NCBI RefSeq assembly: GCF_024700885.2
Contig: NZ_CP117016.1
Direction: 5' to 3' (one strand)
From: Escherichia coli
Lineage (GTDB): Bacteria; Pseudomonadota; Gammaproteobacteria; Enterobacterales; Enterobacteriaceae
DNA length: 64,000 nt
Shown: in pieces, positions 771-958 of the stretch
How the letters are laid out: each line of letters starts with the position of its first letter
How positions within the stretch are numbered: the first letter of the stretch is position 1
Position numbers and translations under genes: made by a program
The notes under the pieces: generated by a model
Database searches by the model: none
Told to the model about the DNA's origin: nothing
What the model saw: the letters and a program-made list of their open reading frames with translations, nothing else

Positions 771-958
771 GGTGAAACAGGTGGAACAACCGTATTTTAC
801 AGGGCTGAACCTGTTCCACCTTCTGAAATAGTGAGGTGGAACAGATGTAACGCCAGCCAATCCGCTGTTCCACCTTGTTACCCGCGATGTTCCACCGGTG
901 CAGTGTATATAAATGCCTTATAAAACAAAGCCGTAACACATGTTTCACCTGTTCCACC
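771..958. repeat. Iteron array: 8 copies of GGTGGAACA/TGTTCCACC (two degenerate) in both orientations; putative crr/ori-like replication site
   Basis: Copies read directly at 771-780, 780-789, 811-820, 835-844, 865-874, 889-897, 941-949, 950-958. One C longer than the P4 type I iteron TGTTCACC. Sits directly 3' of the primase gene. Confidence 0.75.

What the first reader, a model, noticed from the sequence alone, without database searches (positions are those of the whole stretch)
771..958. Eight TGTTCCACC iterons in both orientations downstream of the primase gene
This is a dense, bidirectional array of a 9-10 bp motif one base longer than the P4 alpha-binding iteron TGTTCACC. It is likely the cis replication region (crr/ori) of this satellite and would be the primase-helicase binding site.
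Basis: partly seen in the sequence, partly recalled or inferred. Interest (0 to 1): 0.4.

Follow-up and report, generated by a model that had tools for sequence, protein, structure and literature searches.

The report
Iteron replication origin of a satellite
This is very probably the replication origin of a P4-like phage satellite integrated in E. coli: short repeats placed right after the replicase gene for that protein to bind.

Summary
Six TGTTCCACC and two TGTTTCACC sites lie at 771-958 in both orientations. The motif occurs nowhere else in the 64 kb, and 0.003 sites are expected by chance in 188 bp. Four weaker copies bring the array to 12 site positions (762-958), with an 80% AT stretch at 907-926.

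The element is a P4-like satellite prophage at tRNA-Thr: int, alpA, replicase, array, Psid, sid, psu, delta, retron.

"Origin bound by the replicase" is well supported; "P4 crr" is not:
- The 890-aa replicase matches P4 alpha only in the primase part (aa 5-316).
- Its helicase and C-terminal winged helix match SaPI Rep and SCCmec Cch (DUF927).
- The element has one iteron cluster, not ori plus crr.

The layout matches published SaPI/PICI origins. In 100 related loci, 67 have their locus-unique iteron array right after the replicase stop, with 21 different repeat cores. In close relatives all sites switch base 5 together (C to A). Site columns stay 95% identical while spacers fall to 58%. The protein changes that accompany iteron switches cluster in the terminal winged-helix module.

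Verdict: a new member of a known kind, of modest interest. Binding and replication were not tested.

The parts
1..736 (+). 3' end of the replicase gene (aa 646-890 of an 890-aa protein with Zn-ribbon, TOPRIM and DUF927 domains; the full gene is L001 12064-14736). Stop codon at 734-736.
   Evidence: An identical E. coli chromosome is annotated 'TOPRIM and DUF927 domain-containing protein'. Pfam finds Zn_Ribbon_Prim at aa 32-68, Toprim_3 at 209-304 and DUF927 at 330-612. The sequence matches SaPIbov1 Rep 8tch and Cch 5dgk.
494..733 (+). Codons for the terminal winged-helix-like module (aa 811-890), the predicted iteron reader. Residues associated with specificity: P861 (644-646), T870 (671-673) and P878 (695-697).
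   Evidence: AF2 model of aa 777-890 has pLDDT 93.8. Foldseek hits are SaPIbov1 Rep (E 1e-3, TMq 0.61) and TcpK, solved with oriT DNA. Residues that discriminate iteron types were found, and their enrichment in this module has p = 0.005.
743..766 (.). Conserved box GCGTGAGTCTTATTT after the stop codon, followed by an A/T run (70% AT). Role unknown.
   Evidence: Invariant in alignment A3 although the other spacers diverge. Recognisable in L003, L004, L041 and L053. AT profile.
762..788 (-). Left tandem iteron set at 9-bp spacing: weak TGTTACCCT (762-770), TGTTTCACC (771-779), TGTTCCACC (780-788).
812..820 (+). Iteron TGTTCCACC
835..852 (-). Iteron TGTTCCACC (835-843) plus a degenerate tandem copy CGTTACATC (844-852). 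That copy is a good site in the relatives L005 and L019.
866..896 (+). Direct set of three: TGTTCCACC (866-874), weak TGTTACCC (876-883), TGTTCCACC (888-896).
897..931 (.). AT-rich spacer (peak 907-926, 80% AT), the candidate DNA-unwinding element. Contains one weak IHF-like match at 908-920.
   Evidence: AT profile. It is AT-rich in all relatives although its sequence diverges. IHF consensus with one mismatch.
932..958 (+). Right tandem set at 9-bp spacing: weak CGTAACACA (932-940), TGTTTCACC (941-949), TGTTCCACC (950-958). It is inverted relative to the left set.
1047..1102 (+). Psid-like late promoter with two Ogr/Delta-type boxes TGT-N12-ACA (1047-1064 and 1085-1102). It adjoins the origin but is not part of the iteron array.
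   Evidence: Repeat D4, pattern scan, alignment with P4 9414-9591.
1137..1880 (+). sid homologue, the first gene of the late operon (sid, psu, delta). It fixes the array's position relative to P4's map.
   Evidence: BLASTP against P4 Sid gives E 2e-12. Pfam Psu and Ogr_Delta hits on the downstream genes.

Best explanation
The array at 762-958 is the origin of replication of a P4-like satellite prophage. It works like a SaPI/PICI origin, not like P4's ori plus crr.

The replicase encoded just upstream has three parts: a P4-type Zn-ribbon/TOPRIM primase, a DUF927 helicase of the SaPI-Rep/Cch type, and a C-terminal winged-helix module.

Inferred steps:
1. After induction, the replicase binds the 9-bp iterons (TGTT[C/T]CACC) through its terminal winged helix. 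The wing (aa ~861-878) and the preceding helix (846-855) probably read the variable centre of the iteron.
2. Multiple protomers occupy the tandem and inverted sets.
3. They melt an adjacent AT-rich segment (907-926, possibly also 747-766).
4. The helicase loads itself as a ring, and the fused primase starts synthesis.

Shown here: the anatomy of the array, its linkage to the replicase gene across about 70 loci, co-variation of iteron and protein, and homology of the helicase and C-terminal domain.

Not shown here: binding, melting and replication.
For: 1. Clustering far above chance.

2. Published origin layout. SaPI origins lie immediately 3' of rep and have 6-12 iterons, an AT-rich region, and at least two iterons on each side in opposite directions. 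They are read by a winged helix in the Rep C-terminal domain, and SaPI5 fuses primase and Rep (PMC9371898). E. coli PICIs have the same layout, and the EcCICFT073 rep-ori segment is a validated replicon (PMC6092414). Here the array starts 25 nt after the stop, has 12 positions, an 80% AT segment, and inverted outer tandem sets.

3. Initiator homology. The protein has a DUF927 domain. phmmer hits SaPIbov1 Rep 8tch (4.6e-15) and Cch 5dgk. The C-terminal-domain model matches only these two. The terminal 114-aa model (pLDDT 93.8) matches 8tch (TMq 0.61) and the oriT-DNA-bound protein TcpK.

4. Linkage. In 100 loci encoding relatives of the C-terminal domain (37-100% identity, from Enterobacterales to MAGs labelled Acidobacteria), 70 have a 7-mer repeated at least 6 times in the 350 bp after the stop. 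In 67 of them this exceeds every other window of the locus (control mean 2.4). There are 21 different cores with one shared architecture. The array follows the replicase whatever gene comes next: sid, delta, or a ComEC-like gene.

5. Concerted switch. Between the TGTTCCACC lineage and the TGTTACACC lineage (92-95% identical in the last 285 aa of the replicase), site positions are conserved. Non-position-5 iteron columns are 94.9% identical and spacers 57.6%. Position 5 differs in 64 of 64 comparisons.

6. Protein correlates. Only four residues separate the two lineages (718, 861, 870, 878). A second, independent switch in Xenorhabdus (TGTTACACC to TGTTACCAG) comes with 8 changes in 290 residues, six of them at 825-887, and again includes 870. 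Switch-associated changes fall 9 to 3 inside the terminal module, against 10 to 26 for ordinary polymorphisms (Fisher p = 0.005).
Against: - No experiment was done: binding, melting and origin activity are all inferred.
- The AT-rich segment is off-centre, and the sets directly flanking it are co-oriented, unlike the idealised SaPI picture.
- About 12 Pseudomonas-type loci with a 38-41% identical C-terminal domain have no array within 3 kb. In a few other loci the array lies 1-2 kb downstream.
- The two weak TGTTACCC sites did not take part in the concerted switch.
- The region also folds well as RNA (z = -4.0).
- The protein correlates come from only two lineage pairs, and the groups are clades, so they are not independent samples.
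- The winged helix is a prediction.
Confidence: 0.85

Rival explanations
1. One reading: a P4-type cis replication region (crr or ori) whose iterons are read by a P4-alpha-type C-terminal origin-binding domain, with the extra C a minor variant of the type I iteron.
For: The element is a P4-like satellite and its primase domain is 39% identical to P4 alpha. The motif differs from TGTTCACC by one inserted base. The array sits upstream of a Psid/sid homologue, as P4 ori does. The first six site positions have the same orientation pattern as the six P4 ori iterons: three reverse, one forward, two reverse.
Against: No similarity to P4 alpha beyond aa 316. hhalign gives 0.5% probability against the P4 C-terminal 254 aa. 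The P4 origin-binding domain is not among the Foldseek hits. There is a single cluster rather than ori plus crr. There is no TGTTCACC in the region. A true relative of the P4 alpha helicase and origin-binding part (EcCICFT073 Pri-Rep, 41% identical to alpha aa 324-756) uses TGTCTACC and is unrelated to this replicase.
Confidence: 0.04
2. An RNA element: the inverted repeats form a long hairpin in the transcript between the replicase gene and sid, acting as a terminator, attenuator or processing site.
For: Window 737-1000 folds at -87.2 kcal/mol, z = -4.0 against shuffles. Concerted changes in inverted copies would also preserve base pairing.
Against: Every helix would have to use the same 9-mer, which pairing does not require. 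The copies are unbalanced (7 plus, 5 minus), and direct tandem copies at 9-bp spacing have no partners yet are just as conserved. There is no terminator-like site. The same repeat logic appears in 21 sequence variants, always tied to a DNA-binding replicase. No Rfam family matches the region.
Confidence: 0.04
3. Mainly a regulatory operator or copy-control array: replicase or another element-encoded regulator binds here to control read-through into Psid/sid, to autoregulate, or to pair copies (handcuffing), while initiation happens elsewhere. This would resemble the accessory role of P4 crr.
For: Iteron arrays in plasmids commonly double as control sites (general knowledge). The array lies between two operons, about 90 bp upstream of the delta boxes. 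P4 itself needs a second, non-initiating cluster (annotation).
Against: No other iteron cluster exists in the element to serve as the true origin. The array follows the replicase gene even where sid, psu and delta are absent. It includes an AT-rich segment, as validated origins do. This role is compatible with being the origin as well, rather than an alternative to it.
Confidence: 0.07

Closest known systems
SaPI replication origins with Rep / PriRep self-loading helicases (SaPIbov1, SaPI1, SaPI5; Staphylococcus aureus)
   Same: The origin lies immediately 3' of the initiator gene and consists of multiple short iterons in both orientations plus an AT-rich segment. The initiator is also the helicase, and a C-terminal winged helix reads the iterons. 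SaPI5 likewise fuses primase and helicase (PMC9371898). The helicase is homologous by sequence and the C-terminal domain by fold.
   Different: The host is Gram-negative and the element is a P4-like satellite that uses Sid, Psu and Delta. Iterons are 9 bp rather than 5-6 bp. The array has 12 site positions, with the AT-rich segment off-centre. The primase domain is the P4-alpha type. Sequence identity to SaPIbov1 Rep is only about 12-14% in the aligned structure.
E. coli PICI EcCICFT073 pri-rep-ori module (Fillol-Salom et al. 2018, PMC6092414)
   Same: An E. coli phage satellite with alpA, unidirectional genes and the origin directly after the initiator gene. Its array of about 12 TGTCTACC iterons has inverted tandem sets at both ends. 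The replicon was validated experimentally.
   Different: Its Pri-Rep belongs to the P4-alpha helicase and origin-binding family (41% identical to alpha aa 324-756) and is unrelated to this DUF927 replicase. The first iteron set has the opposite orientation relative to rep. The element is a lambda/phi80-dependent PICI with its own capsid genes, not a P4-like satellite.
Phage P4 ori and crr with alpha protein
   Same: Same satellite family (int, alpA/vis, DUF5375 gene, alpha-type primase, Psid, sid, psu, delta). The iteron is one base shorter (TGTTCACC) and also occurs in mixed orientation. P4 ori also lies just upstream of Psid.
   Different: P4 needs two clusters 4.7 kb apart, and this element has one. 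P4 alpha's helicase and origin-binding domain are replaced here by a DUF927 helicase and a different C-terminal domain. In P4 the alpha and sid operons are divergent. Here they are co-directional, so a single array is both downstream of the replicase and upstream of sid.
SCCmec Cch helicase (5dgk)
   Same: DUF927 helicase and C-terminal domain are homologous.
   Different: I did not examine any cognate iteron origin for Cch. It has no fused primase and sits in a different kind of mobile element.

Membership tests
P4-type ori/crr (type I iterons bound by P4 alpha) | Octamer TGTTCACC as the repeated unit | tested here: not met
   There is no TGTTCACC in 737-1136, and the only copy in the window is at 49991(-). 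The unit here is the 9-mer TGTT[C/T]CACC. P4 has 11 exact octamers in ori and crr.
P4-type ori/crr (type I iterons bound by P4 alpha) | Initiator carries the P4 alpha helicase and C-terminal origin-binding domain | tested here: not met
   BLASTP and tblastn similarity stops at aa 316. hhalign probability is 0.5%. Foldseek hits do not include the P4 domain.
P4-type ori/crr (type I iterons bound by P4 alpha) | Two cis elements, ori and crr, several kb apart | tested here: not met
   The complete element (L001 7838 to about 20300) has only one cluster. P4 has clusters at 9310-9413 and 4314-4585.
P4-type ori/crr (type I iterons bound by P4 alpha) | ori located immediately upstream of Psid and sid | tested here: met
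   The array ends 89 bp before the first delta box, against 80 bp in P4. The Psid region aligns with P4's. The downstream gene is a Sid homologue (E 2e-12).
P4-type ori/crr (type I iterons bound by P4 alpha) | Alpha protein binds the iterons | not testable with these tools
   Needs EMSA or footprinting.
SaPI/PICI-type rep-adjacent iteron origin | Origin immediately 3' of the initiator gene | tested here: met
   The stop codon is at 734-736. The first (weak) site starts at 762 and the first strong site at 771. The definition comes from PMC9371898 and PMC6092414.
SaPI/PICI-type rep-adjacent iteron origin | Six to twelve short iterons | tested here: met
   8 strong plus 4 degenerate copies give 12 conserved positions. 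The unit is 9 bp, longer than the 5-6 bp of SaPIs.
SaPI/PICI-type rep-adjacent iteron origin | AT-rich segment with iteron sets on both sides, at least two on each side pointing in opposite directions | tested here: met
   907-926 is 80% AT and lies between sites 866-896 and 932-958. Sites 771/780 (minus) lie to its left and 941/950 (plus) to its right, and they are inverted. Caveat: the segment is off-centre and the sets nearest to it are co-oriented.
SaPI/PICI-type rep-adjacent iteron origin | Initiator is a Rep-type helicase homologous to SaPI Rep / Cch | tested here: met
   Pfam DUF927 at 2e-90. phmmer hits 8tch at 4.6e-15 and 5dgk at 2.9e-13.
SaPI/PICI-type rep-adjacent iteron origin | C-terminal winged-helix DNA-binding domain | tested here: met
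   This rests on prediction only. The AF2 terminal-domain model has pLDDT 93.8. Its best folds are 8tch (E 1e-3, TMq 0.61, rmsd 3.3 A) and the oriT-DNA-bound protein TcpK (probability 0.98-0.99).
SaPI/PICI-type rep-adjacent iteron origin | Iteron sequence is specific to the cognate initiator (co-variation) | tested here: met
   21 iteron cores across 70 loci. Concerted single-base switch at all sites. Switch-associated substitutions concentrate in the terminal module.
SaPI/PICI-type rep-adjacent iteron origin | The rep-ori segment replicates autonomously and Rep binds and melts the origin | not testable with these tools
   Needs plasmid maintenance, EMSA and melting assays.
P4-like satellite (host element) | int, alpA/vis, alpha-type primase, sid, psu and delta in one integrated element | tested here: met
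   RefSeq annotation of the identical locus. Pfam Psu, Ogr_Delta, Phage_AlpA, DUF5375 and Toprim hits. Sid homology.

The most novel reading that the evidence does not exclude
The origins of this DUF927 replicase family may form a natural series of specificity swaps. One to a few substitutions in the wing and recognition helix of the terminal winged helix (positions 846/850, 861, 866, 870, 878) would re-program recognition of the centre of the iteron, and all ~12 sites would then follow in concert. That would give a readable protein-DNA recognition code and a fast route to new, mutually compatible replicons among satellites sharing a cell. A related open possibility concerns the shared TGT...(C)ACC shape of iterons in initiator families with no detectable common DNA-binding domain (P4 alpha/EcCICFT073 and DUF927). 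It may reflect a common constraint, or an undetected homology, rather than chance.
Probability: 0.15. Interest if true: 0.6.

Novelty: new member of a known kind. Interest (0 to 1): 0.35.

Why it matters
Satellite census papers treat P4-like satellites as having one "alpha" replicase, and they do not discuss origins. This locus shows that a widespread P4-like lineage carries a chimeric replicase: a P4-type primase joined to a SaPI-Rep-type helicase-initiator, with a single SaPI/PICI-style origin in place of ori plus crr. The region is present at >=90% identity in about 338 E. coli chromosomes.

That matters in three ways:
- annotating satellite origins,
- predicting which satellites can coexist or cross-replicate,
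- building orthogonal rep-ori cassettes.

The natural single-base iteron switches, each with very few protein changes, give directly testable hypotheses about how the winged helix reads DNA. The element itself, an iteron origin next to its initiator gene, is an ordinary and expected feature.

Tried and rejected
- A blastn search of window 1-3000 against the phage collection found nothing. P4 was reached only through protein search.
- A full-text search for TGTTCCACC, GGTGGAACA and TGTTCACC returned only unrelated primer matches.
- The primary P4 alpha paper (Ziegelin 1993, PMC413647) is not held. P4 facts were therefore taken from the annotated P4 record.
- The promoter and terminator scan found no terminator between the replicase gene and the array, and no sigma-70 site in it.
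- No good DnaA box and no GATC were found. There is one weak IHF-like match at 908-920.
- A search for an att direct repeat of the tRNA-Thr 3' end on the right side found no exact repeat of 14 nt or more, so the right boundary is not defined.
- ORFs 708-923(+) and 733-1101(-) overlap the array. I rejected them as genes because a 95%-identical relative has 1-bp indels at 801 and 990, and RefSeq annotates nothing there.
- Delta/Ogr binding to the iterons was rejected. The delta boxes (TGT-N12-ACA) lie separately at 1047-1102, and arrays occur in elements without delta.
- The idea that the terminal module merely evolves faster was tested and rejected. Ordinary polymorphisms fall 10 to 26, in proportion to length.
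- The RNA fold is kept as a low-probability rival.

Full report
OBSERVATION. The reported sites are real and sit at the stated coordinates. TGTTCCACC occurs at 780(-), 812(+), 835(-), 866(+), 888(+) and 950(+). TGTTTCACC occurs at 771(-) and 941(+). TGTTYCACC is found nowhere else in the 64 kb. About 0.97 copies are expected in the whole window and 0.003 in 188 bp. The outer tandem pairs are an 18-nt inverted repeat. Alignment with relatives reveals four further degenerate copies at conserved positions (762-, 844-, 875+, 932+). The array therefore has 12 site positions in this pattern: three reverse, one forward, two reverse, three forward, an AT-rich segment, three forward. The strongest AT peak is 907-926 at 80% AT.

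CONTEXT. The first 3 kb is 100% identical to many E. coli chromosomes. In strain 1190 (locus L001) the element sits next to tRNA-Thr. Its gene order is int, a hypothetical gene, an AlpA-like gene, an Icd-like gene, a DUF5375 gene, an 890-aa 'TOPRIM and DUF927' replicase, the array, a Sid homologue, psu, delta, a St85-type retron and a RipA-family gene. It is therefore a P4-like satellite prophage. The window begins inside the replicase gene, whose stop codon is at 734-736. Between the array and sid lie two TGT-N12-ACA boxes (1047-1064 and 1085-1102). These align with P4's Psid region, including the same spacing to the start codon.

COMPARISON WITH P4. The annotated P4 genome places crr (4291-4590) between alpha and attP, and ori (type I repeats at 9310-9413) just upstream of Psid-sid. 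The whole E. coli element has only one cluster. By position it matches P4 ori (upstream of Psid), and it is also immediately downstream of the replicase gene, because here the two operons point the same way. The replicase matches P4 alpha only at aa 5-316 (39% identity, E 1e-48); nothing matches in the helicase or C-terminus. A profile of the C-terminal 278 aa against P4 alpha's last 254 aa gives 0.5% probability. The 'P4 crr read by an alpha-type C-terminal domain' reading therefore fails three of its defining features.

WHAT THE INITIATOR IS. Pfam finds Zn_Ribbon_Prim, Toprim_3 and DUF927 domains. Among solved structures, only SaPIbov1 Rep (8tch, 4.6e-15) and SCCmec Cch (5dgk, 2.9e-13) match by sequence. 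An AF2 model of aa 613-890 (pLDDT 80.6) matches only those two by fold. A model of the last 114 aa (pLDDT 93.8, pTM 0.85) shows a beta-hairpin, two helices (834-840 and 846-855) and a two-stranded wing (868-871 and 879-884). It matches 8tch best (E 1e-3, TMq 0.61, rmsd 3.3 A over 108 columns). The next match is TcpK, solved in complex with oriT DNA.

The literature describes this system. SaPI origins lie immediately downstream of rep and contain 6-12 iterons with an AT-rich region. At least two iterons on each side point in opposite directions, and a winged helix in the Rep C-terminal domain reads them. Rep loads itself, and SaPI5 fuses primase and Rep (PMC9371898). [quoted passage not shown]

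I located EcCICFT073 in CFT073 (L106). Its origin has about 12 TGTCTACC iterons with inverted tandem ends. Its Pri-Rep is unrelated to this replicase, but it is 41% identical to P4 alpha aa 324-756. The replicases are therefore mosaics. P4 alpha combines the primase found here with the helicase and origin-binding part found in EcCICFT073. This element combines that primase with a SaPI-Rep-type helicase-initiator.

COMPARATIVE TEST OF FUNCTION. I collected 100 loci encoding relatives of the C-terminal domain: E. coli genomes, IMG/VR contigs, and 80 species genomes from Enterobacterales, Aeromonas, Pseudomonas, beta-proteobacteria and assorted MAGs. For each locus I took the 350 bp after the replicase stop and counted its most repeated 7-mer on both strands. 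In 70 loci it occurs at least 6 times (median 7). In 67 loci this exceeds every other 350-bp window of the same locus (control mean about 2.4). There are 21 different cores.

The architecture is conserved while the repeat changes. Each array has a tandem set right after the stop, internal sites in mixed orientation, an AT-rich gap and an inverted tandem set at the far end. The cores include TGTTCCACC, TGTTACACC, TGTTACC, TGTACCAC/TGTCCCAC, TGTAGCCAC, TGTTCCC, TGTCCCC and GTGTTCC. The array follows the replicase gene whatever lies downstream: sid, delta, or a ComEC-like gene.

Limits: a few loci have the array 1-2 kb downstream, and about a dozen Pseudomonas-type loci have none within 3 kb.

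NATURAL SPECIFICITY SWITCHES. The first involves relatives 92-95% identical in the last 285 aa of the replicase that use TGTTACACC. Their origins align with the window site by site. Iteron columns other than position 5 are 94.9% identical and spacers 57.6%, and position 5 differs in 64 of 64 comparisons. Only four residues of the last 285 separate the 21 TGTTCCACC loci from the 7 TGTTACACC loci: 718, 861 (P/A), 870 (T,N/S) and 878 (P/V). Three of them lie in or next to the predicted wing.

The second switch is in Xenorhabdus. L039 (TGTTACACC) differs from L042, L044 and L045 (TGTTACCAG) at 8 of 290 positions. Six of those lie at 825-887, including 846 and 850 in the second helix and 866 and 870 in the wing strand, and every site in the array has switched.

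Pooled, the switch-associated substitutions fall 9 inside to 3 outside the terminal module. Ordinary polymorphisms fall 10 to 26, in proportion to length (Fisher p = 0.005). This supports the terminal winged helix as the iteron reader. It is not proof, because it rests on two lineage pairs.

RIVALS. The region folds well as RNA (z = -4.0), as any DNA rich in inverted repeats would. Several points favour protein binding to duplex DNA instead. Every 'helix' would have to use the same 9-mer. The copies are unbalanced (7 plus, 5 minus). Unpaired direct copies are equally conserved. The family-wide link is to a DNA-binding initiator. No Rfam family matches the region, and there is no terminator-like site.

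Coding is excluded by 1-bp indels at 801 and 990 in a 95%-identical relative. Delta binding is excluded because the delta boxes are separate and arrays occur in elements without delta. A regulatory or copy-control role is compatible with the array being the origin. It cannot replace that role, because the element has no other cluster.

VERDICT. This is a SaPI/PICI-style origin next to its initiator gene, belonging to a DUF927 primase-helicase inside a P4-like satellite. It is not a P4 crr.

The near-identity to P4's TGTTCACC is not explained by detectable homology of the binding domains, and I leave it as an open curiosity. The origin is a new member of a known kind and of modest interest. Its main value is the natural iteron/winged-helix switch series, and the evidence that 'alpha' in P4-like satellites is a mosaic. 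Binding, melting and origin activity remain untested.

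Noticed in passing
window 3296-5894: A St85-type retron sits in the satellite's cargo slot after delta. 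The msr RNA is at 3296-3365 (Rfam RF00170, 53.4 bits), the effector gene at 3530-4498 and the reverse transcriptase at 4485-5417. A RipA-family membrane protein gene follows at 5412-5894(-). Relatives carry other cargo there (Drt3a in L005; sce7725/sce7726 in L003).
   Followed up: partly
window 743-757: The box GCGTGAGTCTTATTT, between the replicase stop and the first iteron, is invariant in relatives whose other spacers have diverged to 58% identity. It is recognisable in more distant family members and is followed by an A/T run. Its function is unknown.
   Followed up: partly
window 762-769(-) and 876-883(+): Two weak TGTTACCC sites stay TGTTACCC in both the TGTTCCACC and the TGTTACACC lineages. 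They did not take part in the concerted base-5 switch.
   Followed up: partly
window 1047-1102: A Psid-like late promoter with two Ogr/Delta boxes (TGT-N12-ACA). It aligns with P4 9492-9545, and the spacing to the sid start codon is identical.
   Followed up: yes
window 1137-2706: The late operon order is sid, psu, delta, with a ~90-aa single-finger delta. P4 has sid, delta, psu with a 166-aa delta. The Sid homologue is only 23% identical to P4 Sid and weakly hits the Psu Pfam family.
   Followed up: partly
L106 2241-4238 (E. coli CFT073, EcCICFT073) and L002 (P4): The replicases are mosaics. P4 alpha aa 4-311 matches this replicase, while alpha aa 324-756 matches EcCICFT073 Pri-Rep (41% identity). 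The EcCICFT073 origin uses about 12 TGTCTACC iterons.
   Followed up: yes
P4 ori/crr (L002), EcCICFT073 ori (L106 4004-4238), window 762-958 and related loci: Iterons of initiator families with no detectable shared DNA-binding domain all have the shape TGT-N2-3-(C)ACC: TGTTCACC, TGTCTACC, TGTTCCACC, TGTTACACC, TGTACCAC and others. It is unresolved whether this is chance, a shared constraint or hidden homology.
   Followed up: partly
L003 (E. coli ST131 EC958) 1-8307: An element with the same replicase family and a delta gene carries a 'P2 family major capsid protein' gene and no sid or psu. It appears to be a different satellite type sharing this replication module. Its iteron is TGTTACC, and about 584 E. 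coli records carry replicase genes at this level of divergence (60-80% nucleotide identity).
   Followed up: no
L004 (E. coli A10) 4390-4640: A DUF927 replicase without a primase domain (689 aa), next to alpA, has an origin that interleaves two iteron variants, TGTACCAC and TGTCCCAC.
   Followed up: no
L073, L075, L083, L089, L095, L098, L099, L102 and similar loci: About a dozen Pseudomonas/Stutzerimonas-type loci, with a C-terminal domain 38-41% identical, have no iteron array within 3 kb on either side. In L055, L056 and L076-L078 the array lies 1-2 kb downstream of the replicase gene.
   Followed up: partly
window 771-958 compared with L006-L030: Among relatives at least 97% identical, position 5 of individual sites toggles between C and T (TGTTCCACC 4-7 copies, TGTTTCACC 0-4 copies). 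Either pyrimidine seems to be tolerated at that position.
   Followed up: partly
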